The notes beneath the pieces were generated by a model that did no database searches, was not told where the DNA came from, and was given only the letters and a program-made list of their open reading frames with translations. A program made the translations under genes and the position numbers. From the NCBI GenBank assembly GCA_963725075.1, contig CAVRXA010000004.1, positions 3,578 through 67,577 of the forward strand: a stretch of DNA of 64,000 nt, written 5' to 3'. The DNA comes from an uncultured Acidobacteriota bacterium. Its GTDB lineage: Bacteria; Actinomycetota; Acidimicrobiia; Spongiisociales; ZC4RG35. Shown here one piece after another: positions 7,925 through 38,931 of the stretch. Each line of letters starts with the position of its first letter. Positions within the stretch are counted from its first letter, which is position 1.

Positions 7925-7943
7925 CTCTCGTCTTCGGGCACGG

Positions 7944-7961
7944 TTGTATACCTGTTCACGT
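7944..7961. promoter_or_regulatory. Putative Rex operator upstream of the bc-type operon
   Basis: TTGTATA-cctg-TTCACGT versus TTGTGAA-N4-TTCACAA (10/14), 20 nt upstream of the ATG at 7924. Confidence 0.45.
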
Positions 7962-7996
7962 CGTTTCTACCACAACCCGGGGCTCGTAAGAGAACC

Positions 7997-8051
7997 AGCG
8001 AACCCAGGGTTCTGGACTTCGGTGAGCGGTGCCTGCAACCCTGGGTTCGCT
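7997..8051. repeat. Perfect 15-bp inverted repeat with 25-nt spacer in the divergent promoter region
   Basis: AGCGAACCCAGGGTT (7997-8011) / AACCCTGGGTTCGCT (8037-8051). Confidence 0.85.
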
Positions 8052-8055
8052 AGTT

Positions 8056-9543
8056 ATGCTCCCGCCGTCCCGTTCCGCGACGAGGGAACCCTTGGCCGCA
8101 ACCCAAACTGCAGACATCAGGGCCCTCCTCGGGGCCGGAGATGAGGACCGCGTCGCCGTCGCCCACTTCCTGGTAGGGGCCCTCTTCCTGGTGCTGGCCG
8201 GTGTCTTCCAACTCCTCGCCCTCTTCTCGTTGCGGTTCGCCGGGCTCTCCCCGATCAGCTACGGCCGGGCCGAGTCGTTGGCCAACATCACCGTCATGCT
8301 CGGCTTTCTCGTGCTGACGCTTGCCGGTGGCGTCTATTACGTCCTGCCCCGGCTCACAGGCGCGCGACTCTGGCGAAAGGAGCTGGCCTACCTCGGGCTG
8401 CTCGGCGTCTCGGGTCTCGTGGTGCTCGACCTTCTGGCCGTGGTCTTCGGTCTCGGTGAGGGTCGACAGCCGTTTGGCCTGCCCTGGTGGCTCCACCTCC
8501 CGATGCTGGCGGTGCTCACCATTCCGTTCGCCGTCACGATGATGACCATCCGGCGCCGGGAGGAGAAGCGGAGTTTCGTCACCCTTTGGTTCGTCATGGG
8601 CGGCGTGGCCTGGCTGCCATTGCTGTACTTCGTCTACACGGCGGGCAGCCTGCCCTTCGTGGACTCGTTGGGTGCGGCGTACTCCGACGTCTTCTTCTCG
8701 GCCGGATTCGTCACCCTCTGGGTGTTCACCGTGGGCAGTGGGCTCTTCTACTACACCCTGGTCAAAGGGCTCGACATCCCCCTCGCCTCCCGCCAGCTGG
8801 CTTCAGTCGGCTTCTGGTCACTCGGCTTCGCCGCCGCATGGTGGGGGTCGGCGCAGCTCGTCTTTGGCCCCGGGCCGGGTTGGATCGACGGGGTGTCGGC
8901 TGCCCTGGGCCTGGCCTTCCCCATCGGCGCCCTCGCCAATGCCGCCAATGCCTCGCTGACCCTCCAGGGGCATTGGGAGGAGTTGAGGGACAAGCCGGGT
9001 GTTGTCTCGGGCGTCGTCGGTCTCTATCTGGGGGTGGCCGTGGCCATCCTGGCCAGTTTCGCCGCCTTCCCCTCCGTCGGATCGGTGACCGCACTCACCG
9101 CCTACTGGGAAGCGATCGAATACGTGGCTCTGTACGGCGTCGGCGTGCTGCTCGCCGCCAGCGTCGTCTTCGAGGCATTGCCCAGGTTGGCTGGCCGCGA
9201 GCCGGCCACATTGGATCGTCCGCGGTCCTTCAATCGGTGGACCGTCGTCGGGGTGGGCGGTGTCGGGGTGAGCATGATCGCGGCCGGGTTGGTCAGCGGT
9301 TACTCGTGGGTCGCGGGGTCGAACAGCGCCGCCTACGTCAACGCGGGGGAGGGCTGGGCCGCCGGGGCGGGGGCAGCCGACGTCCTGATGCTCGTCGCCG
9401 TTGGCTTCGGCATCGTGGCCTTCCTCGGACAACTTGCGTACGCCGCCACCGTGATCGGGACGGTCACGAGCGGCAAGGCCGTCCCCCAGGAGGTTCTGGT
9501 CTACGGCCCCGACCCTGATAGCGACGAGGACGCCGATGAGTGA
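8056..9543 (+). CDS. cbb3-type oxidase subunit I (CcoN)-like polytopic membrane protein lacking the canonical His ligands
   Basis: ~12 TM helices with CcoN-like landmarks ISYGR, YYVLPRLTG, LWF, FYYTLVK, GFWS..W.G, VFEALPRL; precedes a CcoO-like gene. Confidence 0.75.
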   Translation: MLPPSRSATREPLAATQTADIRALLGAGDEDRVAVAHFLVGALFLVLAGVFQLLALFSLRFAGLSPISYGRAESLANITVMLGFLVLTLAGGVYYVLPRLTGARLWRKELAYLGLLGVSGLVVLDLLAVVFGLGEGRQPFGLPWWLHLPMLAVLTIPFAVTMMTIRRREEKRSFVTLWFVMGGVAWLPLLYFVYTAGSLPFVDSLGAAYSDVFFSAGFVTLWVFTVGSGLFYYTLVKGLDIPLASRQLASVGFWSLGFAAAWWGSAQLVFGPGPGWIDGVSAALGLAFPIGALANAANASLTLQGHWEELRDKPGVVSGVVGLYLGVAVAILASFAAFPSVGSVTALTAYWEAIEYVALYGVGVLLAASVVFEALPRLAGREPATLDRPRSFNRWTVVGVGGVGVSMIAAGLVSGYSWVAGSNSAAYVNAGEGWAAGAGAADVLMLVAVGFGIVAFLGQLAYAATVIGTVTSGKAVPQEVLVYGPDPDSDEDADE

Positions 9544-10363
9544 GCTGAGTGCTGCCGCCGCTGCCGCGCTCGGCATCCCCGAAGCCATCGTGCAGCGCTC
9601 AGCCGCGGCCCGGGCTGAAGAAACCGGCATGACCGTGGACGAGGTGTTGGCCGCCTGGGCCGGTGGAGGAGACATCCCGCCACCGGCGGCACCTGCTCCC
9701 GTCGAGCCAGATGCGGCAGAGGAGCCGACCGCGCCTGCCGATGAGCCGGCGCCGGCGCCTGCGTCTTCGGCACCGACCCCTGTCATCGAGGTTCCTTCCG
9801 CCCCCGTCGTCGGAGCGACGGCTGCTCCTGGCAAGCCACCGGTCCTGGTCGGAGAGGCCGACAACCCGATCGCCGTCTTGGTCGGTGCCGTGGGTCTGTT
9901 CGTCGCCCTGTTTCTGGTTGGTGTCGTCGGCCCCGCGTTGCCTACCGAGAACCCCGGGGCGCGGACCAGTGACCTGCCCTACACCGAGACGGCCCTGCAC
10001 GGGCAGGAGATCTACCAGTCGGTCGGTTGTGCGTCCTGTCATACCCAGATGGTGCGTCCCGTGGTGGCGGATGTCGGTCTCGGGGCTGTGTCTCTGAACG
10101 ACACCAATCAGGTGTTGGGGACACGCCGTTTCGGCCCCGACCTGTCCAATGTCGGGGCGCGAGTCTCCGCCAGCCAGATCGAGGCGATCATCCTCGGGCT
10201 CGACGACCATCCCTCCCTTTCCCTTTCATCAGAAGATCTCGATGCCCTGGTGGCGTATCTGGTCGAGTCGGCCACGCTCGAGGAAGCCCCACCTGGTGAG
10301 CCGACCGAAGAGGAGCCCGCCCCAGAAGGTGACGTGCCCACCGAGGAGACCGCCGCGTCATGA
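9536..10363 (+). CDS. ccoO: cbb3-type subunit II (CcoO)-like monoheme cytochrome c
   Basis: GCASCHTQMVRP and GTRRFGPDL resemble the CcoO motifs GCxxCHSQxIRP and GSKRTGPDL; one TM helix. Confidence 0.8.
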   Translation: MSELSAAAAAALGIPEAIVQRSAAARAEETGMTVDEVLAAWAGGGDIPPPAAPAPVEPDAAEEPTAPADEPAPAPASSAPTPVIEVPSAPVVGATAAPGKPPVLVGEADNPIAVLVGAVGLFVALFLVGVVGPALPTENPGARTSDLPYTETALHGQEIYQSVGCASCHTQMVRPVVADVGLGAVSLNDTNQVLGTRRFGPDLSNVGARVSASQIEAIILGLDDHPSLSLSSEDLDALVAYLVESATLEEAPPGEPTEEEPAPEGDVPTEETAAS

Positions 10364-11409
10364 GCGATCTGAGCGCCGCCGCAGCCGCCCTCGGCATCCC
10401 GGAAGCCATCGTCCAGCGCTCGGCTGCCGCCCGTGCCGCCGAGACAGGGATGACGGTCGACGAGGTGCTGGCAGCCTGGGCCGGGGGCGGGTCCGTGGCC
10501 GGGTCGCCGGCAGCACCCTCGGAGGAGGCGCCGGCCGCTTCGGCCGAGGCACCGGCAGCAACCGAGGAAGAAGCTCCCCCCTCCCCGCCTGCGGCGGTAC
10601 TCCCCCCTTCGGGGGGAGAAATGGCCGAGCCTGTGGCCGCGGTGCCCTCCGGCCCGGTGACCCGATCTCCTGTCCCAGCCGAGGTGACCGCCGCCGAGGC
10701 TGCCGGGCTGCCCGAGGTGATCACCGTCCCCACGGCGGGCATCAGGGAGCGGACCAATCTCGCCATCCCACGCTGGTTGGCCGCGGTGATGCTGATCATC
10801 CCCGCCTTCGCCCTCTTCGCTCTGGGCGGTTCCGCCACCGGTGAGTGCGGTGAGAACACCGAGCTAGCCACCAACGTCATAACCGGCCAGGTGGTCAACT
10901 GTGACGGGACCGAGTTCACCGGCTCGGGTGCCGGTGGCGGGGGCGGCGACTTCATCGCCATGGGAGAGGACGTCTATCTCAACGTGGCCAGCTGCGACGG
11001 ATGTCATGGCGCCCAGGGCCAAGGCGGGGTCGGTCCGGGCTTCTCGGGGGTAGTCACCACTTTCGGTTCCTGCACCGATCACATCGAGTGGGTCACGCTC
11101 GGTTCGGTCGGATTCCAGGGCGAAGGCCGGTCGACATACGGCGACACCGACAAACCGATCGCTGGAGGTATGCCGGCATTCGGCACGACTCTCACCGAGG
11201 AGCAACTGGCCTCGGCGGTCGCCTTCGAGCGGGTCCGCTTCGGTGGCGCCGATCCGACAGAGACTCTCACCGACTGCGGCCTCGCCCCGGCGGAGGGCGA
11301 GGAGGGAGAGGCTCCCGGCGAGACCACACCCGACGGCGAGCCGCCGGCGGAGGGGGAAACGACGACCACGGTGAGCGGCGCAGCGGCCGCGCTCGCACCG
11401 GCCTCATAG
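10360..11409 (+). CDS. Membrane-anchored monoheme cytochrome c (CcoP-position subunit)
   Basis: CDGCHGAQGQGGVGP, GGMPAFG axial Met, one TM helix; ATGA overlap with the upstream gene. Confidence 0.88.
   Translation: MSDLSAAAAALGIPEAIVQRSAAARAAETGMTVDEVLAAWAGGGSVAGSPAAPSEEAPAASAEAPAATEEEAPPSPPAAVLPPSGGEMAEPVAAVPSGPVTRSPVPAEVTAAEAAGLPEVITVPTAGIRERTNLAIPRWLAAVMLIIPAFALFALGGSATGECGENTELATNVITGQVVNCDGTEFTGSGAGGGGGDFIAMGEDVYLNVASCDGCHGAQGQGGVGPGFSGVVTTFGSCTDHIEWVTLGSVGFQGEGRSTYGDTDKPIAGGMPAFGTTLTEEQLASAVAFERVRFGGADPTETLTDCGLAPAEGEEGEAPGETTPDGEPPAEGETTTTVSGAAAALAPAS
10575..10621 (+). repeat. 47-bp palindromic (REP-like) element, copy 1, in-frame within the cytochrome c gene
   Basis: 43/47 identical to 23014-23060; two hairpins CCGCC-tgc-GGCGG and CTCCCCCC-ttc-GGGGGGAG. 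Confidence 0.8.
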
Positions 11410-11430
11410 CCATACCTTCGGATTTTTTTC

Positions 11431-11685
11431 CTAGTTCGTCAGTCTTCGCAGCGACCTTCGCAAGGGCCGGGTCTCGATGTTCCCCTCGGCGAGCACAATG
11501 TCGCCAGGCCCGAGTAGAACAGGTACCCGCAACCCATAATCCCTGGTCAGAGCATCGTCCGTGTCGATATCGACCTCGTGGATCGTGCCTCCGACCCTCC
11601 TCACCGCCTTCTCGACGACCGGCCGCGCCTCATCGCAAAGATGACAACCGGCCCTGATCAAGAATCTGAAGACTGAATTGTTCAA
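11431..11685 (-). CDS. Glutaredoxin-like protein (DUF836 type)
   Basis: GCHLCD CxxC motif, VDID, YGLRVPV. Confidence 0.85.
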   Translation of the reverse strand: MNNSVFRFLIRAGCHLCDEARPVVEKAVRRVGGTIHEVDIDTDDALTRDYGLRVPVLLGPGDIVLAEGNIETRPLRRSLRRLTN

Positions 11686-11716
11686 GTAACCACCGTGGGT
11701 GACCGATAATGGACAC

Positions 11717-11864
11717 GCACGGATGGAGGGTCAACCGTTCCCCTCATACCAAGGGCACGTTCGTCCAAGGTGTGAACGGATAGCCTCCCAGCCCGCCCCA
11801 CGGTACGGAACCCTCCTTCGTGCAGATGAGGCCCCCGCCACGCGTGGGGGCCTCATCACTTTTC
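11717..11864 (+). ncRNA. Putative structured ncRNA, 6S-like long hairpin with central bubble, plus terminator
   Basis: GATAAT -10 at 11705-11710. 11717-11738 pairs with 11800-11823; 14/13-nt C-rich bubble; apical stem 11753-11786; terminator hairpin follows. Confidence 0.6.
11825..11864 (+). terminator. Intrinsic terminator
   Basis: 12-bp stem GATGAGGCCCCC / GGGGGCCTCATC followed by ACTTTTC. Confidence 0.75.
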
Positions 11865-11898
11865 GGCGCACCGATCGTGGTCTGCCATCGTGTGAGCG

Positions 11899-11997
11899 TT
11901 GAGACCCGCCACCGCCGTCGTCTTCGTCATCTTGCTGCTTCTCATCGCTGCCGCCGGCATCATCCAGCTGACGTCGATCCTGTCCCAGCCAGGGTGA
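11899..11997 (+). CDS. Putative 32-aa single-TM small protein (not in the ORF track)
   Basis: TTG start; MRPATAVVFVILLLLIAAAGIIQLTSILSQPG*; overlaps the convergent gene end by 38 nt. Confidence 0.4.
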   Translation: MRPATAVVFVILLLLIAAAGIIQLTSILSQPG

Positions 11998-12793
11998 CCG
12001 CCACGCCCGCCGACAGGTTCAACTCCTCGTCGGCAGCGCCCTCCCGAATCGCTATGGCAATCAGCCCGGCCGAATCGACATGCACCAGCGCCTCCCCGGG
12101 CTCGACATCGGAATAGGTGGCAGCCCACGGGATCGTGTGGAGAGTGGCGCCGACCTTCATCGTCAACACGGATCCTGGCGAGACGCCGACCGCCGCCAGG
12201 TCGTCGGGACCGATGTTGGTCTGAACGTTCCCGAACCGATCCACCCACCACGCCTCGCCGGTGACCAGGCTTCCCTGCGTCTCCGGCAGCGGGAGCAGCA
12301 ATGGCTGCACGGCCTCGGGACCAACCTCGGGACCGAGATCCTGGATCGCCGCCTCCCCCGAGGCAAGAAGGGCAGCCGCCGGGGCGAACACATCTCGGCC
12401 GTGAAAGGTCTCGCCCGGCGAGGGAATCCTCGCCTCGGGATTGTCGATCGAGACCATCACCCGGGCCCCGCCCACCATCGCCACTGCCGGCGAAAGCACC
12501 CCGTTGTCCGGACCGACGAAGAAGCCCCAGTCTGTCTCCAGGGCCAGCGCCTTGCGCTCGGAGCCGACACCGGGGTCGACCACCACGAGGGCGACTCCTT
12601 CCGGGAGATACTGGATGGCACGGGTCAGACTGAGGGCGGCGGCCTTCACATCACCCCGCGGAGTGCCATGGCCGACATCGATGACGCGTGACTCCGGCGC
12701 CAGCTTTGCCAGCACCCCATGCACCACGCCTACGAACTCGTCGGAGTGACCAAAGTCGGACAGGAAGCTGATGGGGAGTGCGTTGTCGGTCAT
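11960..12793 (-). CDS. SAM hydrolase / SAM-dependent halogenase family (DUF62)
   Basis: LSDFG, VVDPGVG, GPDNG, TFHGRDVFAP, DRFGN. Confidence 0.92.
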   Translation of the reverse strand: MTDNALPISFLSDFGHSDEFVGVVHGVLAKLAPESRVIDVGHGTPRGDVKAAALSLTRAIQYLPEGVALVVVDPGVGSERKALALETDWGFFVGPDNGVLSPAVAMVGGARVMVSIDNPEARIPSPGETFHGRDVFAPAAALLASGEAAIQDLGPEVGPEAVQPLLLPLPETQGSLVTGEAWWVDRFGNVQTNIGPDDLAAVGVSPGSVLTMKVGATLHTIPWAATYSDVEPGEALVHVDSAGLIAIAIREGAADEELNLSAGVAVTLAGTGSTSAG

Positions 12794-27949: not shown

Positions 27950-28591
27950 TTGAGATACCTCATCCCGGTCGCCGGGGAGCGACTTCCCCGGCGCATCACA
28001 CAATTGATAATCGGCCTGGTCCTGTTTGGCGTCGGCATCGGGCTGATGCTGCAATCGGGCATGGGGGTGCCGCCGTGGGATGTCCTCCACCAGGGACTGG
28101 CCCGCCGCTTCGGGCTCACTGTCGGGGCCTGGTCGATCATCGTCTCGGTGGCCGTCCTCCTCCTCTGGCTGCCGTTGCGCCAGCCCTACGGGCTGGGCAC
28201 GTTGCTCAACGCAATCATCATCGGGGTCGTCATCGACCTGACCGGCGTTGCCATCCCGGCGGCCGAAGTGACCGGTGTGGCCTGGTCGATGATGCTCGGC
28301 GGGGTCGTCTTGATCGGGATCGCCTCCGGTCTCTACATAGGAGCCAATCTGGGGCCCGGCCCGCGCGATGGGCTGATGACCGGGATCGCACGCAAGGGAC
28401 CTTCGATAAGGCTTACCCGCGCCGTCATCGAGATAACGGTCCTCACCCTCGGCTGGATCCTCGGCGGCACCTTCGGCATCGGCACCATCGTCTTCGCTCT
28501 CGCCATCGGTCCGCTGGTCCAATACTTCTTGCCTCGCTGGGACATCTCACCCCACCCGAGCACCGACGCCTGGGAACATCTCGACCGCTGA
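27950..28591 (+). CDS. YczE/YyaS/YitT family membrane protein
   Basis: GMGVPPWDVLHQG, GLGTLLN, GPGPRDGLMTG, GIGT. Confidence 0.9.
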   Translation: MRYLIPVAGERLPRRITQLIIGLVLFGVGIGLMLQSGMGVPPWDVLHQGLARRFGLTVGAWSIIVSVAVLLLWLPLRQPYGLGTLLNAIIIGVVIDLTGVAIPAAEVTGVAWSMMLGGVVLIGIASGLYIGANLGPGPRDGLMTGIARKGPSIRLTRAVIEITVLTLGWILGGTFGIGTIVFALAIGPLVQYFLPRWDISPHPSTDAWEHLDR

Positions 28592-28665
28592 ATCACGTCG
28601 TTTTTGGGATCGAGACGTGTCACATACGGACGTGTAGGTCCCAATTTCGCATTACCCTTGCGTTC

Positions 28666-31600
28666 GTGGAGACGTCCAGGGAGGGGAGCGGCTTCGAGTC
28701 GCCCAATCACGACCCCCGGTTGAGGGTCTTTGTCTCGTCCACCCTCGGCGAGCTCAAATCAGAGCGCGAGGCCGCCAAGTCCGCCATCAAGACCCTGAGG
28801 CTGGACCCGATCGGCGTCGATCTCGGCAGCCGCAACGGGCACGACGGGCTCACGATCGCTGACGCCGACATATTCGTAGGCATCTACTGGCAGTCGTTCG
28901 GCTGGGAGTCGGACCTGGAACGGGAGTACGAGACCAGTTCCGGTCTCCCCGGCCTCATCTATGTCAAGGAGCCGGCCCCCGAACGTGAGGACGGCCTGAC
29001 CGATCTCCTCGGGCGCGCCCGCACTGAGGCACGATCGCGGATCCGGACCTTCGAGTCACCCGGCGAGCTCGCAGAGATGCTGGTCGAAGACCTGGCGGGG
29101 GTGATGTCCGAGAGATTCGCCAAGACTGAACCAGGCCACGACTCGCTCCCGGTCGGGACTCTCACGTTCATGTTCGGTGATCTGGCCGGGTCGACCACCC
29201 TCGTCGAGCAGCTCGGAGACCAGTACGCCGAGGTCCTGGCCGGATACCACCAGGTCGTGGCCGACGCCACCCTCCGGCACGATGGGACCGTGGTCGATCT
29301 CGAAGGTGAACGTCTCTTCAGCGTCTTCCAGGATGCCTTCCAGGCCGTCAGCGCAACTGTCGAGATCCAGAAGTCCCTCGGCGATCGCATCTGGCCGGAG
29401 TCGGTGTCGGTAAGCGCGCGGCTCGGGCTCCATACCGGTACCGCCCGCATCGGGTCGGGTGGGTACATCGGGCTCGACGTCCACCGGGCATCACGGGTTG
29501 CGTCCTCCGCCCATGGAGGGCAAATCGTCGTGTCCGCCCCTGTCCGGGAGCTGGTCGAGGGGCAGACCGAGAGCGCGGGATGGGAGATCAAGGACCTTGG
29601 CTCCTTCGCCCTTAAAGGCCTTTCCCGCGCCGAGAAACTGTTCCAGGTGCGCGCCCCCGGGCTCCGGGCCGACTTCCCGCCGCCCCGGGCACGATCCATC
29701 ACAAGGGTCCGGCTCCCGGTGTCGCAGAACACCCTGGTCGGGCGGGATAGGGAGCTGGCCGAGCTCGTGGAGATGGTGAAGCGACCCAACGTTCGCCTCG
29801 CCACCATCGTCGGCCCGGGTGGCATCGGGAAAACCCGTCTCGCCCTGTCGGTGGCAGAGGACAGCTCCGCCGAGTTCCCCGACGGGGTCTACTTCGTCAA
29901 CCTGGCCGCAATCACCGACCCGGACCAGGTGCTGCTCGCCATCGGTGGCGCCGCCGGGATTCCCATCGAGGGCGATGCGATCGACGCCCTATCTAGCGAG
30001 TTCCAGGACCAGCAGGTGCTTCTCGTGATCGACAACTTCGAGCACGTGGCAGAAGGAGGCTCCTCGGTCGCCGACCTCCTGGGCCGTAGCCCCGGGCTCA
30101 AGGTCCTCGCCACCAGTCGAGTCCCGCTCCGGATAATGAGCGAGTACGAATACACACTCGAGCCGCTCGGCCTGCCCCCCACCGGCTCGGACCGACCCGA
30201 CTCGGTCTCGGCCTCGGATGCGGTGCGTTTGTTCATCGACCGGGCCCTCGCCGTGATCCCGGGATTCTCGATCGACGAGAGCAACGCATCGCCGGTCGCC
30301 TCGATTGTTCGCATCGTCGACGGCCTGCCCCTGGCCATCGAGTTGGCCGCAGCCCGTCTCCGCATGCTCAGCCCGGTGGCGCTTTCCGAGAGACTCACCA
30401 GATCTCTCGACGCCCTCGGCTCCGGGGCGGCCGATGTTCCCAGCCGGCAGCGCACCCTCGACGCTGCCATCGATTGGAGCTATCAGCTGTTGACTCGCGA
30501 GGAGCAGACACTCTTCTGCAGGTTGTGCGTGTTTCAGGGGGGCTTCACGGTGGAATCCGCCCAAGAGGTGGCGGTCGAGGAGGGAGACGCCGTCGACCAG
30601 CTGATGGTGCTCGTCGAGAACAGCCTCATCCTTCCCGCCCAGGGTGGTGAGGGCCGTCTGAGGATGCTGGCCCCGATCAGGGAGTTCGGCCTCCGTCATC
30701 TCCATGAAGCGGGCGAGTACGAATGGATGAAGGACAGGCACGCTGACTACTACGTGCGGGTCGCCGATAGTTCCTTGGAAGACCTCCGCGGGAGCAAGGC
30801 AGGCGGCGGTCGTGGAGAGCTTCACGGCCGATTGGAACAACATCGACGTCGCCGCCGAATGGCTCATGAAGAAAGGGGACGACGCCTCCCTCGTGACGAT
30901 GTCCTTCGGCATGTGGGTCTACCTTTGGGTCGGGAATCATCTGAAGGACGGTGCCCGATATCTCGCGGCCGTCGGCTCACCGGAGGACCTCGACGAGACC
31001 CTCGCCGGCCGTTTCTGGTTCCTCCGGGGCGGTATTCAGTATGAGATGGGCCTGTATGAAGAGTCGAAGGTGTCGATCGACAGGGCGGTCCAGATCCTGG
31101 AGACCAACGGCGACATCGACTGTCACAACTGGACCGATTTCGTATCGGCTCTCCTGCTGCCGGTGGAAGGCGCGGATCCGGCCCAGGTGACCGAGAGGCT
31201 CGAGCTGTCGCTCGCCCGATTTCGCGGGTTCGGCGATCGGTGGGGCGAGGGGTACGCCTTGATCGCCCTGGGCATTCTGGCCGCGTCCAATGGCGACGTA
31301 GAGGCGGCCGAGAAGTATCAGTTAACAACCCGAGAACTGGGTTTCGAGCTAGGCAATGGAGCTTTGATCGGTCTGGCCGAGGCGCAGATCGGTTTCACCT
31401 ACATCTCTTCGGGCCGTCTCTCCGAGGCGCGGGATGCCCTCCGCCGATCCTTCGACGTGTTCCGGGGCATGAACTATCGGGAGGGCCTCTGTTACGCCCT
31501 CGAGGCGGCGGCCTCGCTCTCGTTCACCGAGGGGCAAACCGAGCTCGGCATGATCGCCCTGGGCGCGGCGGAGGAGGTCAGAGAGCGGATCGGGCTGCAT

Positions 31601-31756
31601 CCGTGGCCCTTGATCATGTGGCTCTTCGACGCACTCTCCGCTATGGCTGATTCCCTCGACGACCCGATGTTTCAGGCCGCCCGTCACAACGGACGCCAAC
31701 TCAATCCTTTCGACGCCGCCGCTCTCGTGCTCGACGCCGCCCCCGTCCCGGTCTGA
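28666..31756 (+). CDS. DUF4062 + class III cyclase-homology + STAND NTPase + helical repeat protein; frameshift at ~30790
   Basis: RVFVSSTL (DUF4062), TFMFGDLAGST and RLGLHTG (cyclase), GPGGIGKT and LLVIDNFE (NTPase), GLPLAIELAA. Deleting one G joins it to the 30812-31756 ORF. Confidence 0.82.
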
Positions 31757-31764
31757 TCCCCCGT

Positions 31765-32811
31765 CTACATGGTGGCGAGGGAGGCGTTGGGAAGCGACCG
31801 CCCATAGGTTGCCCGGATCTGGACCTTCCGCTCCAGGGCATCGACAACGACGCCCGCGAAATCGACCTCGTGCAGCCCGCTGGCGCTTCCTAGCCCCCCA
31901 GGGCTGAAGACATTCGCCTCCATCATCTTGGGCCCGACGATGTCGAGCCCAACGAGAAACATGCCGTCTTCGATCAGCTTGGGCCGGGCCAGGTCGACCA
32001 CATGAAGCATCTCCTCTGTGATCTTCACCTTCTGTGCCTTCCCCCCGACATGCATGTTGGAGCGGACATCGTCGCCTTCGTTGACCCTGCGGAAGGCGGC
32101 CACTTTGCCATCCACCTCGAGCGGCTTCCCGTTCATGACGAAAAGGCGAACATCACCCTTCTCCGCATCCGCGAGGAATTCCTGGACCACCACATAGCCG
32201 TCCCGGGTGATGGTCTCGATGATCTGATTCACGTTCTGGCCCTTTTTGCCGGCGATGACGAACACGCTCTGACCACCGGAGCCCTGCAGCGGCTTGAGCA
32301 CGGCTCGTCCACCGAGATCTTCGATGAAGGCTTTGATGTCCCCGACCGTGCGGGAGATGAGGGTCCGGGGTCGGATCTCCTCCGGGAAGTGCTGGAAGTA
32401 GGTCTTGTTGATCGCATCCGCCAGATGAACCGGGTCGTTGACCACCACCACTCCTGCTGCGGCGGCAAGCTGACCGAAGAGCACACCCGAGGCCTGAGCC
32501 CAGGGTCGATCGGTGGCATCTTCGGCCGGGTCGTTGCGGAGCATGAGGACATCGAGCTCGTCGACCGTGACCAACTCCGGTTCAGCGTCTTCTTTCTGCA
32601 CATCCTCGAGAAAGCTCTTCAGCGAGCGATAGGTCCTGTCCAGAGGGCCGCGCGCCCGCGCCGTCACTTCACCCGAGGAAGTGTGCGCCAGGTCGCCGAC
32701 CCCCATGAGCCAGACCTCGTGGCCCCGCTTCTGGGCAGCCAATGCCAGCCGGGTGGTGCTGTACTCCGATTTCTCGGTCATCACGTCGTTGACGACGAAC
32801 CCGACCTTCAC
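31765..32811 (-). CDS. GshB-like ATP-grasp peptide ligase
   Basis: GshB-like N-domain (STTRLALAAQKRGHEVW), LKPLQGSGG, QEFL..GDVR, RSNMHVGG, GLDIVG..MEANVFSPGG. Confidence 0.85.
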   Translation of the reverse strand: MKVGFVVNDVMTEKSEYSTTRLALAAQKRGHEVWLMGVGDLAHTSSGEVTARARGPLDRTYRSLKSFLEDVQKEDAEPELVTVDELDVLMLRNDPAEDATDRPWAQASGVLFGQLAAAAGVVVVNDPVHLADAINKTYFQHFPEEIRPRTLISRTVGDIKAFIEDLGGRAVLKPLQGSGGQSVFVIAGKKGQNVNQIIETITRDGYVVVQEFLADAEKGDVRLFVMNGKPLEVDGKVAAFRRVNEGDDVRSNMHVGGKAQKVKITEEMLHVVDLARPKLIEDGMFLVGLDIVGPKMMEANVFSPGGLGSASGLHEVDFAGVVVDALERKVQIRATYGRSLPNASLATM

Positions 32812-33963
32812 GCGGCAATACCTCCCAGCTCCATGATCCCGGCGCCCTCCTGGATCCTGGCCAGTCGATCGAGCGCGTCTCTCGACTCCAGGAATCGGGG
32901 CCTGAGCGGCGGGTCGACCAAGACACCTCTTTCCAGGAGGTCGGCGACCAGCGGCTCGTCGGCCAACGATATCTTCCCCACCAGCAGCGGATCGAGCCGG
33001 CCTCCTTCCTGGAGGTAGGTGAGGAGCCTGGTCAGCCCGCCGAGATAGAGAGCGTCCTTCGTCATGCCCCCGGACCGATGGGCGCGCATCGCCGTGGTGA
33101 AAGCCCGGTTCCGGCCCGAGCCGAGATCGATCAAGTTGTCGTATGTCTCCCTGAAGGTGGCCCGCCCGCTGACCGAGTCTGCGGCCACAACGCGGAGCGC
33201 AAACGCCCGCAAACGCTTCGGGCGGATGCCCCCACCCAGGTGCTCGGCGAGAACACCGAGGGCCTCCTGGGTCTCCTCATACCCGGAGAGGCCCAGCGAG
33301 AGCATTCGAATCGGCTGCGCGCTCCCGTTGACGAAGGTGACGACGTGTACCCCGATCTCGTGGTGAAGGAGTTGCTCCACCCGGTCACCGGCGATCGATG
33401 TGTCGACTGCCGATGAATAGGTCTCCATTCTCCACCATCACGCCCGCCACCGCTTCGCTCACATGGACCAGGGTCGACAGCTCGGGGAACCGCTGGCGAT
33501 AGTGATCGAGCTCGACATTGGCCATTCCCGCCAGCTCGTGGGCATCGACGTAGACATCGGCGGGCGGGCCCGGCGGGATCTCTTCGAGCACACGATGTGC
33601 CAGGTCCAACAGTGACTTCTCGACATGCCCGTATTGCTCGACCGCGGCGAGGAGAAACTGGTCGGTGTTCCTCGTCGCCAACAGCTCGAGACGACGCTCC
33701 AGCTCTCGGTGCATGCCCCTGATCATGTGAATCAGCACCGGGTCTGTCGCTTCCTCCGGGTTGATCGCGGCTAGCTCATCGGCGAGGCCGTCCAAATCTG
33801 GGAGATCCCGATAGGTGAATTCGGGCTCCTCGATGTCTCCCTCGAGGAACGCCCTTCGCTGCTCGGGCACATTTATCGGCGTGAGCAGTTGGAGCATGGG
33901 AAGCAGTCCGCAGATCTCGCTCAGCCGGCGGTCGATGGCAAGGTCGATCTCTCCGACGCTCAT
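32808..33963 (-). CDS. DUF1704 / QEGLA-motif metallopeptidase (MATCAP-like); frameshift at ~33408
   Basis: HEIGVH (HExxxH), TQEALG, RSGGMTKDALYL. The two ORFs join after a 1-nt deletion. Confidence 0.82.
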
Positions 33964-34748
33964 GCCAGACTCCAGGCCTTCCGAACGTCAGGGCCCGAAG
34001 CGATCAGGGCATCACCCAGCTGCGACATCCGCTCCAGGTCGAGCTCGCCGGTCCATTCATCCATGAACACCTTCTTCAGCTCGATAGCCAGGGCGCATCC
34101 CACGTCGCCGTAATTCTCGTGCACCCAACGGGCCACCTGCCGGCCCTCGAACCGCACATTCTCCCGAGCATCGAGATGGGCACCGTCCAAGGTGTTGGAC
34201 CGAAGGCTCTCGATGAGGGCATCTGCGACCGGCTTCCATTTCTCGGGCAACGATCCAGTGCCCAGGTTGACGATCGGGCTCTCCTCGACAGGGTCGGGAG
34301 GGGCATCAGGACCGAGTCGTCGATGGTTGTACGAGTGGATGTCGTAGAGGACGAACCCACCGTGCCCTTCAACCAGCCGGTCGAGGACCCGGGCCAGATC
34401 GAGGTAGAAGCGGTCGTAGGAGGCGAGGGAGGCGAATACCTCCTCCTCGGTGAGCTCCCGCTGCCACAACTCGAGGCCCCAGGCGTCTTCGGGACTCGTA
34501 TAGACCGCCTCGTCCCGCTCCCGGTTCAAGTCCACCTCGAAGCGGGAGCGATGGACCACGACATTGTTGGCGAAACGGGCCGAGATGGTTCCGGTGTGGG
34601 GGTCTTCCTCTCGGATCCGCGTTGCGTCATCGAGGGCGGTCAGGGCGGCGAGATCCGGCCGGAGATCGTGCCCGTTGTGGACCGCGGCGGCGATCAGAAC
34701 ATCGGGTTCAGACACGTTGAAAGAAGCAAATTCCATGGATCGATTCAC
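33960..34748 (-). CDS. N-formylglutamate amidohydrolase family protein
   Basis: AVHNGH, REEDPHT, SRFEVDLNR, YDIHSYNH, ENVRFEG, AIELKK. Confidence 0.88.
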   Translation of the reverse strand: MNRSMEFASFNVSEPDVLIAAAVHNGHDLRPDLAALTALDDATRIREEDPHTGTISARFANNVVVHRSRFEVDLNRERDEAVYTSPEDAWGLELWQRELTEEEVFASLASYDRFYLDLARVLDRLVEGHGGFVLYDIHSYNHRRLGPDAPPDPVEESPIVNLGTGSLPEKWKPVADALIESLRSNTLDGAHLDARENVRFEGRQVARWVHENYGDVGCALAIELKKVFMDEWTGELDLERMSQLGDALIASGPDVRKAWSLA

Positions 34749-34859
34749 ATTTACCCCACTCGGGCCACCGCCGAAACCCGGACCGGTATGTGACCGTTAG
34801 CCATCATGGGGGGACCATGTCCCCTACTGCTGATGGATATCGCGGTTGACGATGGGCGC

Positions 34860-35213
34860 ATGTCCGACCACGAGGGCGCACTCGCCTTAGTCAAAGGCAT
34901 CCACACGGTGATTTGGGCGATCGTTGAGACGGCGATGGTCTACCTGCTCGCCTCGGGTATGGCAGGCAGGTCAGATCGTCGGGCGGGAGCGGCGGCAGCG
35001 ATCGTCGGAGTGGAGACCCTCGTGTTCCTGGCCAACGGCGCCCGTTGTCCGCTCACCGGGCTGGCCGAGTCGCTGGGCGCCGAGCATGGTTCGGTGACCG
35101 ACATATATCTCCCCGGGTGGCTGGCGCGGAGCCTCCCGATGATTCATGTGCCACTGATAGCCGCCGCGATGTGGCTGCATTGGCGGAACGTGACCGGGTC
35201 GCGAAAAGTCTGA
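34860..35213 (+). CDS. Small membrane protein (DUF2784-like, CPLT motif)
   Basis: Three hydrophobic segments, NGARCPLT, DIYLP. Confidence 0.65.
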   Translation: MSDHEGALALVKGIHTVIWAIVETAMVYLLASGMAGRSDRRAGAAAAIVGVETLVFLANGARCPLTGLAESLGAEHGSVTDIYLPGWLARSLPMIHVPLIAAAMWLHWRNVTGSRKV

Positions 35214-35526: not shown

Positions 35527-38500
35527 ATGAGCAAAGGCCTGCGGATCACCCGTCGCTTCACCGAGGCCGGCAAGGACCCATTCGACAAACTCGAATGGTC
35601 CCGACGCGACTCGCGGATCACCAACCCGGATGGCTCGACAGTGTTCGAGATGACCGACGCGGAGATCCCGGCTGGTTGGAGTCAGGTGGCCTCGGACATC
35701 ATGGTGTCCAAGTACTTCCGCAAGGCCGGTGTCCCCCAGTTCGACGAAGACGGGAACCAGGTCTTCGACGCGAGCGGCCAGCCGTTGCTCGGACCGGAGA
35801 GGTCGGCCAAGCAGGTATTCAGCCGTCTCGCCGGCACCTGGCGGCATTGGGGCGAGAAGGAGGGCTACTTCGCGACGAGCGATGACGCCGCCGCCTTCGA
35901 GGACGAGCTCAAGTTCATGCTGGCCAACCAGATGGCCGCGCCCAACTCCCCGCAGTGGTTCAACACCGGTCTCAACTGGGCTTACGGTCTGACCGGGCCC
36001 GCCCAGGGCTTCTGGTACGTCGACAGCGTCGACGGCGAGCTCAAGGCCTCCCCCGACTCCTACAGCCGGCCCGCCCCCCACGCCTGTTTCATCCTCTCGG
36101 TGAGGGACGACCTGGTGAACCCGGGCGGGATCATGGACCTCTGGGTCCGCGAGGCTCGCATCTTCAAGTTCGGCTCGGGTGCCGGATCCAACTTCTCCCA
36201 TATCCGCGGCGAGAACGAGCGACTCTCCGGTGGCGGCAAGTCCTCCGGTGTCATGTCCTTCCTCAAGATCGGCGACCGGGCAGCCGGTGCGATCAAGAGC
36301 GGAGGCACCACGAGACGCGCAGCCAAGATGGTGATCCTCGATGTCGACCACCCCGACATCGAGAGGTTCATCGACTGGAAGAAGGTCGAAGAGGACAAGG
36401 CCAGGGTGCTGATCAACCACGGTGGCCTGCCCGCCGACTTCAACGGCGACGCCTACGCCACCGTGTCCGGTCAGAACTCGAACAACTCAGTCCGGGTCAG
36501 CAACGACTTCATCCAGACCGTCCTCGACGATGGCGACTGGGACCTGATCAACCGGACCGACGGCTCGGTCCGCAAGACGGTCAAGGCACGCGACCTGTGG
36601 GACACGATCGCCGAGGCCGCCTGGGCCTGCGCCGACCCCGGTCTCCAGTTCGACACCACAGTCAACGAGTGGCACACCTCACCGGCAGGCGGCCGGATCC
36701 GCGCTTCCAACCCTTGCTCGGAGTACATGTTCCTCGACGACACCGCATGCAACCTGGCGTCGATCAACCTGGTCAGGTTCCACGACGACGAGACCGGTGT
36801 CTTCGACCTCGAGGCGTACCAACACGCCGTCCGGCTCTGGACGATCGTCTTGGAGGTCTCGGTGGCCATGGCCCATTTCCCCTCCCCCGAGATCGCACAG
36901 GGCTCCTACGACTACCGGACCCTTGGCCTCGGCTACGCCAACCTCGGATCGCTGCTGATGCGTCAGGGCATCGCCTACGACTCCGACGAGGGCCGCGCCA
37001 TCAGCGGGGCGTTGACCGCCATCCTCACCGGGTACTCCTACGCCACCTCGGCTGAGATCGCCGGTGTGGTCGGGCCCTTCCCCCGCTATGCCGAGAACCG
37101 GGAAGCGATGCTGCGGGTGATCCGCAACCATCGCCGCGCCGCATATGGCGACAGCGACTACGAAGGGGTCAGTCACAAGGTGATGGCGATCGACCCCGAT
37201 CTGTGCCCGCCCGACTTCCTCGCCTCGGCCCGTACCTCGTGGGACCTGGCCCTGGAACTTGGAGAGCAGGACGGCTATCGCAACGCGCAATCCAGCGTGA
37301 TCGCTCCCACCGGGACCATCGGCCTCTTGATGGACTGTGATACCACCGGGGTCGAGCCCGACTTCGCCCTGGTCAAGTTCAAGAAGCTGGCCGGTGGCGG
37401 CTACTTCAAGATCGCCAATCAGTCGGTGGCGCCGTCGCTACGACACCTGGGCTACGAAGAGGACCAGATCAAGGATGTCGTCGAGTACATCGTCGGCACC
37501 AGCTCGATCGACGGGGCGCCCCACATCAACCGTGAGACGCTCATGGACAAGGGCTTCGATGACGAGGACCTCGCCAAGCTGGCGGAGGCATTGCCTGCGG
37601 TGTTCGAGCTGAAGCATGCTTTCAACGTCTTCACCTTCGGTGAGCAGACCCTGCAGCGTCTCGGCTTCGGGGTCGACGAGTACACCGGTTGGGAGTTCAA
37701 CCTGCTCAAGGCGCTCGGGTTCACCACAGCTGAGATCAGCGAGGCGAACGACCACATCTGTGGCCGGCAGACCATCGAGGGCGCACCACACATTGCCGAC
37801 GAGCATCTCGCCGTCTTCGACACCGCCAACAGGAACGGCAAGTACGGCGAGCGATTCATCCACCACTACGGCCACATCAAGATGATGGCTGCGGCCCAGC
37901 CGTTCATCTCGGGGGCGATCAGCAAGACGATCAACATGCCCCACGAGATCACCGTCGAGGACATCGAGGAGTCGTACCGGATGTCCTGGGAGTGGGGTCT
38001 GAAGGCGATGGCCCTGTACCGGGACGGGTCCAAGGCGGCCCAGCCGCTCAACTCGACCTCCGACGAGGGCGAGGACAATGAGGACGAGACGCCGGCGCTG
38101 TCCGCTGCGCTCGAAACCGAGAAGGCGATCCACTGGGGCAACCTCCCGGCCGGGATCTCACCGACCCAGGCATACCACCAGGGGATGAAGCCGCCCCGGT
38201 TCCTGCTCCCGGCCCGTCGCAACGGGTACAACCAGGAGGCGAGGATCGGCGGGCACAAGGTCTTCCTCCGCACCGGCGAGTACGACGACGGGACGCTGGG
38301 CGAGATCTTCATCGATCTGGCCAAGGAGGGGGCGACCCTGAAGGGGATCCTGTCCTGCTTCGCCATCGCCGTCTCCAAGGGTCTCCAGTACGGAGTGCCG
38401 CTCGAGGAGTTCGTCGACACCTTCACCTTCCAGACCTTCGAGCCGAGGGGCATGGTGGAGGGCCATCCCAACATCAAGATGGCCAACTCGATCGTGGACT

Positions 38501-38931
38501 ACGTGTTCCGGGCCCTCGGTGTCGAGTACCTGGAGCGGGACGAGCTGGCCCAGGTTCCACCCGACCGTGACATGCAGCTCCCCGAGCCGCCTGCTGGGAT
38601 GGCAGTCGAGGCCGGGGTCCAACTCGACCTCACCGATGCGGTAGCCGAAGACGATGTCGAGGCGGTGAAGGCGGCCGTTGCCTTCCTCGACGGACCTGCC
38701 GTTTCCTCCCCCAGGAGCGAAGCGACGTTGGGGGAGGTGGCCCAAAGGGCCGGAGGGGGTTCCAATGCGGCGACCGAGACCGTTCTCGCCGGCTCGGCAG
38801 CGATGGTCGACTCGGCCCTGAAGGAGAACATGGGCGACGCCCCGGTGTGCTCCAACTGCGGTCACATGACCATCCGCAACGGGAGTTGCTACGTGTGCCT
38901 CACCTGCGGGGACACCACCGGCTGTAGCTGA
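35527..38931 (+). CDS. nrdJ: Vitamin B12-dependent (class II) ribonucleotide reductase
   Basis: APNSPQWFNTG, HACFI, GSGAGSNFS, ASNPCSEY, TACNLAS, IAPTGTI, SGAISKTIN, C-terminal CxxC...CxxC..GCS. No intein seen. Confidence 0.97.
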   Translation: MSKGLRITRRFTEAGKDPFDKLEWSRRDSRITNPDGSTVFEMTDAEIPAGWSQVASDIMVSKYFRKAGVPQFDEDGNQVFDASGQPLLGPERSAKQVFSRLAGTWRHWGEKEGYFATSDDAAAFEDELKFMLANQMAAPNSPQWFNTGLNWAYGLTGPAQGFWYVDSVDGELKASPDSYSRPAPHACFILSVRDDLVNPGGIMDLWVREARIFKFGSGAGSNFSHIRGENERLSGGGKSSGVMSFLKIGDRAAGAIKSGGTTRRAAKMVILDVDHPDIERFIDWKKVEEDKARVLINHGGLPADFNGDAYATVSGQNSNNSVRVSNDFIQTVLDDGDWDLINRTDGSVRKTVKARDLWDTIAEAAWACADPGLQFDTTVNEWHTSPAGGRIRASNPCSEYMFLDDTACNLASINLVRFHDDETGVFDLEAYQHAVRLWTIVLEVSVAMAHFPSPEIAQGSYDYRTLGLGYANLGSLLMRQGIAYDSDEGRAISGALTAILTGYSYATSAEIAGVVGPFPRYAENREAMLRVIRNHRRAAYGDSDYEGVSHKVMAIDPDLCPPDFLASARTSWDLALELGEQDGYRNAQSSVIAPTGTIGLLMDCDTTGVEPDFALVKFKKLAGGGYFKIANQSVAPSLRHLGYEEDQIKDVVEYIVGTSSIDGAPHINRETLMDKGFDDEDLAKLAEALPAVFELKHAFNVFTFGEQTLQRLGFGVDEYTGWEFNLLKALGFTTAEISEANDHICGRQTIEGAPHIADEHLAVFDTANRNGKYGERFIHHYGHIKMMAAAQPFISGAISKTINMPHEITVEDIEESYRMSWEWGLKAMALYRDGSKAAQPLNSTSDEGEDNEDETPALSAALETEKAIHWGNLPAGISPTQAYHQGMKPPRFLLPARRNGYNQEARIGGHKVFLRTGEYDDGTLGEIFIDLAKEGATLKGILSCFAIAVSKGLQYGVPLEEFVDTFTFQTFEPRGMVEGHPNIKMANSIVDYVFRALGVEYLERDELAQVPPDRDMQLPEPPAGMAVEAGVQLDLTDAVAEDDVEAVKAAVAFLDGPAVSSPRSEATLGEVAQRAGGGSNAATETVLAGSAAMVDSALKENMGDAPVCSNCGHMTIRNGSCYVCLTCGDTTGCS

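What the first reader, a model, noticed from the sequence alone, without database searches (positions are those of the whole stretch)
31765..34748. Formylglutamate amidohydrolase + MATCAP-like peptidase + GshB-like ligase: a candidate peptide write/erase system
The three genes overlap by 4 nt each, so they form one operon. The ATP-grasp resembles glutathione synthetase, but the substrate loop reads EANVFSPGG instead of EINVTSPT, no GshA is adjacent, and Actinobacteria generally use mycothiol. DUF1704 has the HExxxH site of the family that includes the tubulin detyrosinase MATCAP. A ligase, a carboxypeptidase and a deacylase together suggest reversible amino-acid tagging of a protein or turnover of an unknown small peptide (inference).
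Basis: partly seen in the sequence, partly recalled or inferred. Interest (0 to 1): 0.62.

Follow-up and report, generated by a model that had tools for sequence, protein, structure and literature searches.

The report
Conserved ligase, peptidase, amidase operon
Three tightly packed genes in a soil Acidimicrobiia genome (a glutathione-synthetase-like ligase, a bacterial relative of the tubulin-trimming enzyme MATCAP, and a formylglutamate-amidohydrolase-like enzyme) belong to a widespread, uncharacterised bacterial cassette that probably builds and trims a small acidic peptide rather than making glutathione.

Summary
The trio is real. It lies on the minus strand at 31765-34748 in the order FGase-like, MATCAP-like, GshB-like, with ATGA and GTGA start/stop overlaps.

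Similar contig-specific single-base insertions break three other conserved genes in this window. Among relatives, only long-read MAGs show such breaks. I therefore read it as an assembly error (about 85%).

The cassette keeps its order in 57 of 59 related loci, in Actinomycetota, Planctomycetota and Rhizobiaceae megaplasmids. FGase-MATCAP and FGase-ligase fusions exist. No fourth gene recurs.

The ligase keeps all GshB catalytic residues but falls below the GshB equivalog cut-offs and belongs to the PRK12458 subfamily. No gshA was found in the genome. Sinorhizobium meliloti carries the same trio on pSymB, yet its chromosomal gshB mutant lacks glutathione.

In Photobacterium, an adjacent "GshB"/QEGLA gene pair is induced 27- to 38-fold at low salt.

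Best reading (about 0.5): a cytoplasmic build-and-trim cycle on a small acidic, glutamate-containing peptide. Protein-tail tagging remains possible.

This scan has noted the same trio in at least 15 other genomes. The substrate is still unknown.

The parts
33960..34748 (-). FGase-family (N-formylglutamate-amidohydrolase-like) metal amidohydrolase, 262 aa as listed. The true start is probably the ATG at 34736 (258 aa).
   Evidence: Pfam PF05013, 80.8 bits. HutG equivalog TIGR02017 scores only 21 bits against a cut-off of 278.75. AF2 model pLDDT 94.3; Foldseek top hits are the FGase structures 2Q7S and 2ODF (TM 0.72-0.77), followed by M14-type carboxypeptidases and phage poly-gamma-glutamate hydrolase. 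Invariant H24, H27, E47-E48-D49, R69, E71, D73, N75, R76, D136, H138, R144, E223, K225 and K226 in 36 orthologues.
33385..33963 (-). N-terminal half of the MATCAP/DUF1704-family metallocarboxypeptidase gene. This frame ends at a stop created by the frameshift.
   Evidence: Pfam PF08014 positions 9-163, 43.2 bits. Collinear with residues 1-185 of intact 384-aa orthologues.
33405..33409 (-). Frameshift site: one extra base (G in 'GGCAGTCGAC' against 'GGCATCGAC' in contig C5). Probably an assembly error.
   Evidence: Alignment of C4 against C5 and G003. C4-specific 1-nt insertions also break conserved ORFs at window 1881, 30798 and 53107. Frameshifted copies among relatives occur only in long-read 'MFD' MAGs.
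32808..33428 (-). C-terminal, catalytic half of the MATCAP-family peptidase, with HExxxH (HHEIGVH) and the downstream QE (QEALG here, QEGLA in most relatives).
   Evidence: Pfam PF08014 positions 166-361, 178.7 bits. The intact orthologue L040 hits human KIAA0895L (7Z5G/7Z5H) at E=2e-5, aligning HExxxH, the QE/EE Glu and KDxxYL. Invariant H201, E202, H206, Q232, E233, E240, R250, R257, R293, R296, K302, D303 and Y306.
31765..32811 (-). GshB-like ATP-grasp ligase of the PRK12458 subfamily, 348 aa.
   Evidence: NCBIfam NF009110 scores 440.4 bits against a cut-off of 408. GshB equivalogs score 206.8 (cut-off 272) and 191.5 (cut-off 299). 1GSA at E=5e-36. Counterparts of E. coli R86, K125, K160, G164/G167, R210, R225, R233, N235, D273, E281 and N283 are kept; SPGG replaces SPTC.
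34749..34805 (.). Short intergenic region between the operon and a divergent 135-aa ORF of unknown function; presumed promoter region.
   Evidence: ORF map. No sigma-70-like site and no terminator were found by the simple scans. No Rfam element was found upstream of the trio in six related loci.

Best explanation
A self-contained cytoplasmic three-enzyme cassette that makes and unmakes a short acidic, glutamate-containing peptide or amide (a small molecule), not glutathione.

Proposed mechanism:
1. The GshB-like ATP-grasp ligase activates a free carboxylate of the acceptor as an acyl phosphate and adds an amino acid to it.
2. The MATCAP-type zinc carboxypeptidase removes C-terminal residue(s) again.
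3. The FGase-like enzyme, which has an M14-carboxypeptidase-related fold, cleaves the last N-acyl-glutamate-type bond.

Together these steps would set the level of the product, possibly in response to ionic or osmotic conditions.

Shown here: gene order, translational coupling, conservation, gene fusions, intact catalytic residues, and non-membership of the canonical GshB and HutG equivalogs.

Inferred: the reaction directions, the acidic nature of the substrate, that it is a small molecule, and the physiological role.

The split of the peptidase gene in this assembly is most likely a sequencing artefact, so the cassette is probably functional in this organism.
For: Operon and coupling.

Conservation: same order in 57 of 59 loci across Acidimicrobiia, Propionibacteriales, Micrococcales and Planctomycetota, and in PGAP-annotated Rhizobiaceae and Phyllobacteriaceae plasmids, including S. 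meliloti pSymB. MATCAP lies directly upstream of the ligase in 8 of 9 further Actinomycetota genomes.

Fusions: FGase-MATCAP (L101, 783 aa) and FGase-ligase (P0123, 624 aa).

Self-contained: no recurrent fourth gene.

Catalytic residues are intact in all three proteins.

Acidic substrate: many invariant Arg/Lys residues in both hydrolases. The reference substrates of all three parent families contain Glu: N-formyl-Glu, gamma-Glu-Cys, and tubulin EEY or polyGlu tails (PMC10499314).

Not glutathione: below the GshB equivalog cut-offs. No gshA was found in the genome. The YbdK-type GCS2 does not co-vary with the trio. S. meliloti 2011 carries the trio ligase on pSymB (50.6% identical; its canonical gshB is only 31%), yet a single SMc00419 gshB mutant lacks GSH by HPLC.

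Physiological hint: adjacent 'GshB' (38.4-fold) and 'QEGLA motif protein' (27.5-fold) genes are among the top genes induced at 1% against 3% NaCl in Photobacterium damselae (PMC10308900).

Fold: the nearest solved folds to the MATCAP orthologue by Foldseek are M32 oligopeptide carboxypeptidases.
Against: No substrate or product is known, and no biochemical or genetic study of the cassette was found.

Co-expression of a ligase with enzymes that undo its product looks futile without regulation, and no regulator is conserved nearby.

The N-terminal (acceptor-binding) domain of the ligase is poorly conserved across the family, so the acceptor may differ between lineages.

Eukaryotic MATCAP/TMCP enzymes act on protein tails, not small molecules.

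I could not verify that the Photobacterium 'GshB' is of the PRK12458 type; I infer this from its adjacency to the QEGLA gene.

The S. meliloti result could also mean that the pSymB gene is simply not expressed in culture.

An association with ion channels reported in earlier notes of this scan was not seen in this clade.

Foldseek similarity to M32 enzymes is weak (E about 1e-3, TM 0.4-0.48), and 7Z5G was not returned.
Confidence: 0.5

Rival explanations
1. Protein C-terminal tail 'write/erase' system. The ligase adds residue(s) to the acidic C-terminus of a housekeeping protein, as RimK does on ribosomal protein S6 or TTL/TTLL on tubulin. The MATCAP homologue removes them. The FGase-like enzyme acts as a second trimming enzyme.
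For: Characterised MATCAP/TMCP enzymes are protein-tail carboxypeptidases and deglutamylases. The RimK/RimB and RloABC precedents pair an ATP-grasp ligase with a peptidase in one operon, and RloABC has a hypo-osmotic phenotype. The absence of a neighbouring precursor or transporter gene fits a target encoded elsewhere.
Against: The ligase carries a GshB-type N-domain, known for a dipeptide acceptor, and is not RimK family (78.7 bits against a cut-off of 143.4). FGase-family enzymes with known function act on small N-acyl amino acids. No candidate target was identified. The accessory, patchy distribution (16 of 24 in the genus, 10 of 300 in the phylum) is unusual for a modifier of a core protein.
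Confidence: 0.2
2. Catabolic or salvage route for an imported or stored peptide-like compound, for example an N-acylated or gamma-linked glutamyl osmolyte. The two hydrolases would degrade it, and the ligase would act on one of the products rather than oppose the hydrolases.
For: There are two hydrolases and only one ligase. The FGase-like fold is related to poly-gamma-glutamate hydrolase and to M14 enzymes. Induction at low salt in Photobacterium would fit removal of an osmolyte. S. meliloti pSymB is rich in catabolic loci, and an ABC transporter lies downstream there.
Against: No transporter or further catabolic enzyme is conserved with the trio. The FGase-ligase fusion suggests the two act on the same molecule.
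Confidence: 0.15
3. Genuine glutathione (or close analogue) synthetase, with two enzymes of glutathione turnover.
For: All GshB catalytic and loop residues are kept, including the counterpart of R233. Databases name it glutathione synthase. No MshC and no canonical GshB were found in this genome or in five trio-bearing genomes. A YbdK-type ligase could supply gamma-Glu-Cys.
Against: The ligase is below both GshB equivalog cut-offs. No bona fide gshA was found (the genome is 88.7% complete). The YbdK gene is present in 40 of 41 relatives whether or not they have the trio. The S. meliloti gshB mutant lacks GSH despite carrying the pSymB paralogue. A housekeeping thiol pathway would not be absent from a third of the genus.
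Confidence: 0.05
4. In this organism the cassette is decaying: the peptidase gene is a true pseudogene.
For: A frameshift is present in the deposited sequence. The twin contig C5 carries its own, different frameshift in the same gene. The site is not a homopolymer.
Against: C4-specific 1-nt insertions break three other conserved ORFs within 64 kb, and a CysRS-like gene elsewhere is also split. Frameshifts in this gene among relatives occur only in long-read 'MFD' MAGs, at varied sites, and one of those has five in two genes. All short-read MAGs are intact. Both halves keep every invariant residue.
Confidence: 0.12

Closest known systems
Bacterial glutathione synthetase GshB (E. coli, PDB 1GSA)
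   Same: Same two-domain architecture (GSH-S_N plus ATP-grasp), E=5e-36. Counterparts of the catalytic and loop residues R86, K125, K160, G164/G167, R210, R225, R233, N235, D273, E281 and N283 are kept.
   Different: About 31% identity. Below the equivalog cut-offs. SPGG instead of SPTC after the Mg-binding ExN. No gshA partner. Always linked to two hydrolases. Does not replace gshB in S. meliloti.
Eukaryotic tubulin tail cycle: TTL/TTLL ATP-grasp ligases against MATCAP/TMCP1-2 (KIAA0895L/KIAA0895) and CCP (M14) carboxypeptidases
   Same: An ATP-grasp ligase is paired with a MATCAP-family HExxxH carboxypeptidase and with an M14-related hydrolase fold. The chemistry acts on acidic, Glu-rich C-termini.
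   Different: The ligase is GshB-like, not TTL family. The components are bacterial and cytoplasmic, with no tubulin. The target is unknown and may be a small molecule. The genes are physically linked in one operon, sometimes fused.
RimK/RimB and RloABC modules of Pseudomonas (alpha-L-glutamate ligase with a co-transcribed retropepsin-like peptidase)
   Same: Operonic pairing of an ATP-grasp amino-acid ligase with a peptidase that cleaves its Glu-rich product, with a link to osmotic stress (PMC11957051).
   Different: Different ligase clade (RimK family score 78.7 against a cut-off of 143.4). Different peptidase classes (gluzincin and FGase rather than aspartic). No transglutaminase-like membrane partner.
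HutG N-formylglutamate amidohydrolase (histidine utilisation)
   Same: Same Pfam family and fold (2Q7S, TM about 0.75) and conserved metal and catalytic motifs.
   Different: 21 bits against the HutG equivalog cut-off of 278.75. No hut genes nearby. Its constant partners are the ligase and the MATCAP homologue.

Membership tests
Canonical glutathione synthetase GshB (NCBIfam NF003573 / TIGR01380 equivalogs) | Score at or above the curated equivalog cut-off | tested here: not met
   206.8 against a cut-off of 272, and 191.5 against 299.05. E. coli GshB is distant from all 116 nearest 50%-cluster representatives in the tree.
Canonical glutathione synthetase GshB | ATP-grasp catalytic residues and flexible loop (E. 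coli K125, K160, R210, R225, R233, D273, E281, N283) | tested here: met
   All are conserved in the window protein and in at least 88% of family representatives.
Canonical glutathione synthetase GshB | A glutamate-cysteine ligase (GshA) in the same genome | tested here: not met
   PF04262 and PF03074: no hit (the PF03074 control rang nowhere). The only GCS2 hit is a YbdK-type PRK13515 ligase, present in 40 of 41 relatives irrespective of the trio. The genome is 88.7% complete.
Canonical glutathione synthetase GshB | Makes glutathione in vivo | not testable with these tools
   Indirect evidence only: an S. meliloti 2011 gshB (SMc00419) mutant lacks GSH although pSymB carries a 50.6%-identical trio ligase.
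PRK12458 'glutathione synthetase' subfamily (NCBIfam NF009110) | Score at or above the curated cut-off, full-length match | tested here: met
   440.4 bits against a cut-off of 408, covering residues 1-348 of 349 model positions.
MATCAP / DUF1704 (Pfam PF08014) | Pfam score above the gathering cut-off, with HExxxH and a downstream Glu | tested here: met
   178.7 and 43.2 bits for the two halves (cut-off 27). HHEIGVH and QE are conserved. The orthologue hits human KIAA0895L 7Z5G at E=2e-5. Foldseek did not return 7Z5G in its top 50; M32 carboxypeptidases ranked first.
MATCAP / DUF1704 | One intact open reading frame | tested here: not met
   Split by a 1-nt insertion near 33407.
QEGLA motif protein (NCBIfam TIGR02421 hypothetical equivalog) | Score at or above the cut-off of 338.65, and the QEGLA motif | tested here: not met
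   193.6 plus 62.2 bits for the two halves. The motif reads QEALG in this genus. The stand-alone paralogue on contig C15 has QEGLA but also scores below the cut-off (310.7).
HutG N-formylglutamate deformylase (TIGR02017 equivalog) | Score at or above the cut-off, and a hut operon context | tested here: not met
   21 bits against a cut-off of 278.75. The neighbours are a STAND NTPase/TPR gene and class II RNR, not hut genes.
FGase family (Pfam PF05013) | Pfam score above cut-off, and the FGase fold | tested here: met
   80.8 bits against a cut-off of 28.9. AF2 model pLDDT 94.3; 2Q7S and 2ODF are the top hits with TM 0.72-0.77.
RimK family alpha-L-glutamate ligase (TIGR00768) | Score at or above the cut-off of 143.4 | tested here: not met
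   78.7 bits.
Known anti-phage defence systems (PADLOC) | Any component model matched | tested here: not met
   No credible hit for the three proteins.

The most novel reading that the evidence does not exclude
The ligase and the MATCAP homologue form a bacterial C-terminal 'tail code'. They add and remove residues on the acidic C-terminal tail of a cellular protein in response to ionic conditions. This would make them a prokaryotic counterpart, and a possible evolutionary source, of the tubulin tyrosination/glutamylation cycle.
Probability: 0.15. Interest if true: 0.85.

Novelty: new variant of a known kind. Interest (0 to 1): 0.5.

Why it matters
The cassette is annotated in many genomes under three misleading names: glutathione synthase, flavohaemoglobin expression-modulating QEGLA motif protein, and N-formylglutamate amidohydrolase. 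I found no experimental study of it in the searched literature.

It pairs an ATP-dependent amino-acid ligase with two carboxypeptidase-like enzymes, one from the family of the human tubulin detyrosinase. Working out its product would do one of two things. It would reveal either an unknown bacterial peptide metabolite, possibly tied to salt or osmotic adaptation, or a bacterial protein-tail modification cycle.

The trio is present on pSymB of Sinorhizobium meliloti 1021/2011, so the question is directly testable in a standard laboratory organism.

It also shows that 'glutathione synthase' calls of the PRK12458 type should not be used to infer glutathione metabolism in Actinomycetota or Planctomycetota.

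Tried and rejected
- A conserved fourth gene or transporter: 25 of 42 diverse loci have no same-strand neighbour within 200 nt. Pfam tallies of 37 same-strand neighbours and of the 138 nearest neighbours show nothing recurrent, and no channels. The channel or Mg/K-transporter link in earlier notes of this scan was therefore not reproduced in this clade.
- A riboswitch upstream of the trio: no Rfam hit in six loci.
- Promoter or terminator in the window: nothing useful.
- Defence-system membership: none.
- Co-variation with a gamma-Glu-Cys ligase: rejected.
- Mycothiol pathway: no MshC above cut-off. The only hit is a CysRS-like gene that is itself split.
- A canonical GshB in five other trio-bearing genomes: none, so this was uninformative.
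- Literature: the terms DUF1704, QEGLA, MATCAP plus bacterial, PA3697, and my guessed S. meliloti tags SMb21584-86 gave no functional study. The Iyer et al. 2009 amidoligase survey is not held.
- Foldseek of the MATCAP orthologue did not retrieve 7Z5G, although HMMER does.
- Residue-level inference of the acceptor substrate: the N-domain is too variable, and no ligand-contact list was available.
Full report
**What is in the sequence.** On the minus strand of 31765-34748 lie four ORFs that make up three genes.
- 33960-34748: FGase family (Pfam PF05013, 80.8 bits).
- 33385-33963 and 32808-33428: the N-terminal and C-terminal halves of one MATCAP/DUF1704 gene (PF08014 positions 9-163 and 166-361; 43.2 and 178.7 bits).
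- 31765-32811: a GshB-like ATP-grasp ligase (GSH-S_N plus GSH-S_ATP).

The gene junctions are ATGA and GTGA overlaps. The FGase start is more likely the ATG at 34736, which gives MEFASF as in orthologues. The operon is flanked by a convergent gene and a divergent ORF. The convergent gene encodes a STAND NTPase with cyclase and TPR domains. The divergent ORF is a 135-aa protein of unknown function, followed by class II ribonucleotide reductase.

**The frameshift.** The window is part of contig C4 of a 2.89-Mb, 26-contig MAG (88.7% complete, 4.9% contaminated).

Contig C5 is a collinear twin at about 94% identity, probably a second strain binned together with the first. Across the trio, C4 and C5 differ by exactly two indels. 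One is an extra G in C4 near 33407, which splits MATCAP here. The other is an extra T in C5 at the equivalent of 33173, which splits the C5 copy elsewhere. Using relative G003 as a third sequence, the extra base at 33407 is specific to C4.

C4-specific single-base insertions also break three other conserved ORFs in this window:
- at 1881, a 347-aa ORF in both C5 and G003;
- at 30798, where the STAND and TPR parts form one gene of about 1030-1100 aa in relatives;
- at 53107, a 542-aa ORF.

A CysRS-like gene on another contig is also split.

Among 80 related loci, frameshifted FGase or MATCAP genes occur only in 'MFD...' MAGs with long contigs. One of these has five shifts. Every short-read MAG is intact. 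Both halves here keep all invariant residues. I conclude that this is an assembly artefact (about 85%).

**Conservation.** The ligase is present in 16 of 24 sampled genomes of the genus, patchily in the order, and in only 10 of 300 evenly drawn Actinomycetota genomes. It is therefore an accessory gene.

In trio-lacking congeners, the slot between the STAND/TPR gene and NrdJ holds unrelated genes (PspC, LiaF-like, alpha/beta hydrolase).

Where the ligase occurs, the trio occurs. The order FGase, MATCAP, ligase is found in 57 of 59 loci with enough flank. These span Acidimicrobiia, Enemella, Tessaracoccus, Ornithinibacter and several Planctomycetota. In 8 of 9 further Actinomycetota genomes, the sole MATCAP gene lies within about 60 nt upstream of the ligase.

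The same trio, with the same overlaps, is annotated by PGAP on Rhizobiaceae and Phyllobacteriaceae plasmids. [quoted passage not shown] It is also intact on pSymB of S. meliloti 1021 and 2011.

Gene fusions exist: FGase-MATCAP (L101) and FGase-ligase (P0123).

No fourth gene is conserved. Most loci are stand-alone, and Pfam tallies of neighbouring genes show nothing recurrent, no channels and no transporters. No riboswitch was found. No component matches a known defence system.

**The three enzymes.**
- *Ligase.* It is a member of NCBIfam PRK12458 (440 bits against a cut-off of 408) but falls below both GshB equivalog cut-offs. It aligns with E. coli GshB (1GSA, E=5e-36). It keeps counterparts of R86, K125, K160, the G164-G167 loop, R210, R225, R233, N235, D273, E281 and N283. 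The family-wide difference is SPGG in place of SPTC. SPGG is the common ATP-grasp/RimK-type motif (own knowledge) and says little about the substrate. The N-terminal, acceptor-binding domain is poorly conserved across the family.
- *Peptidase.* An intact orthologue hits human KIAA0895L (7Z5G/7Z5H) at E=2e-5, aligning HExxxH, the following Glu and KDxxYL. Thirty-seven homologues share invariant HExxxH, QE, E240 and six basic residues. An AF2 model (pLDDT 94.4) finds M32 carboxypeptidases as the nearest solved folds, but weakly, and 7Z5G was not returned. A second, stand-alone MATCAP paralogue with a canonical QEGLA motif lies on contig C15.
- *FGase-like enzyme.* It is far below the HutG equivalog cut-off. 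It has the FGase fold (2Q7S/2ODF, TM about 0.75). More distant structural relatives are M14 carboxypeptidases, including bacterial CCP-like enzymes, and phage poly-gamma-glutamate hydrolase. Its metal and catalytic motifs and many basic residues are invariant.

None of the three proteins shows an N-terminal signal-like sequence (by inspection).

**Is it glutathione synthesis?** No E. coli-type or eukaryote-type gshA was found. The one GCS2 gene is a YbdK-type carboxylate-amine ligase, and it is present in 40 of 41 relatives regardless of the trio.

In plasmid and chromid records the hits fall into two groups: trio ligases at 44-52% identity and canonical gshB at about 30-31%. S. meliloti has both. 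A single mutation of chromosomal gshB (SMc00419) in S. meliloti 2011 abolishes GSH by HPLC (PMC7063052). The pSymB paralogue therefore does not supply glutathione in culture, although lack of expression is not excluded.

**Physiological hints from the literature.** In Photobacterium damselae RNA-seq, the adjacent genes A0J47_RS17020 ('GshB') and RS17025 ('QEGLA motif protein') rise 38.4-fold and 27.5-fold at 1% against 3% NaCl (PMC10308900).

The analogous ATP-grasp/peptidase modules RimK/RimB and RloABC act on Glu-rich peptides, and RloABC gives a hypo-osmotic phenotype (PMC11957051).

TMCP/MATCAP enzymes remove C-terminal Tyr, Glu or Ala next to acidic residues and act as deglutamylases (PMC10499314).

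**Interpretation.** The best-supported model (about 0.5) is a self-contained cytoplasmic cycle. In it the ligase extends a carboxylate-bearing, glutamate-containing small molecule by an amino acid. The MATCAP homologue removes C-terminal residue(s). The FGase-like enzyme cleaves the remaining N-acyl-Glu-type bond.

Rivals are protein-tail tagging (0.2), a catabolic or salvage route (0.15), true glutathione synthesis (0.05) and, on a separate axis, genuine pseudogenisation here (0.12).

**Relation to earlier work of this scan.** The same trio was noted in at least 15 other genomes. I confirm independently the conservation (three phyla tested here), the fusions, and that extra-base artefacts occur. 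I add the S. meliloti and Photobacterium links. I did not reproduce the ion-channel association in this clade.

Noticed in passing
whole window (contig C4) against contig C5 of the same MAG: C4 (73.3 kb) and C5 (71.0 kb) are collinear over their whole length at about 94% identity, so two related strains or species appear to be binned together. A relative MAG (MFD05747.bin.2.102) has a similar twin pair.
   Followed up: partly
window 1881, 30798, 53107: Contig-specific single-base insertions split ORFs that are intact in C5 and in relative G003 (347 aa, about 1030 aa and 542 aa). This points to residual indel errors in the assembly. Other 'split' or 'fused' genes in this window should be read with that in mind.
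   Followed up: yes
window 28075-31756 (+): The 989-aa DUF4062/adenylate-cyclase/STAND-NTPase ORF and the 314-aa TPR ORF are one gene of about 1060-1100 aa in relatives. It has weak similarity to Pycsar-type cyclases in PADLOC.
   Followed up: partly
L127 (relative G012) 7891-12600, against window 35527-38931: The class II ribonucleotide reductase of a congener carries an intein of about 430 aa (Intein_splicing plus LAGLIDADG) at residue 597/598. The window's NrdJ lacks it.
   Followed up: partly
genome contig C15:122366-123469 (-), locus L001: A third, intact, stand-alone MATCAP-family gene with canonical HExxxH and QEGLA motifs and no ligase or FGase neighbour. A RimK-like ATP-grasp gene lies 110 kb away on the same contig.
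   Followed up: partly
loci L104, L107, L110-L112, L116, L117, L120-L123: Planctomycete and rhizobial trio peptidases are 630-710 aa. They carry an N-terminal domain of about 270 aa with no Pfam match, which the Acidimicrobiia proteins lack.
   Followed up: no
genome contig C17:91367-92525: The only MshC/CysRS-like gene is split into two frames at 92218/92223, another probable assembly frameshift.
   Followed up: no
window 34806-35213 (+): A divergent 135-aa ORF with no Pfam or NCBIfam hit. It is conserved next to or near the trio in only some congeners, so it is probably not part of the cassette.
   Followed up: partly
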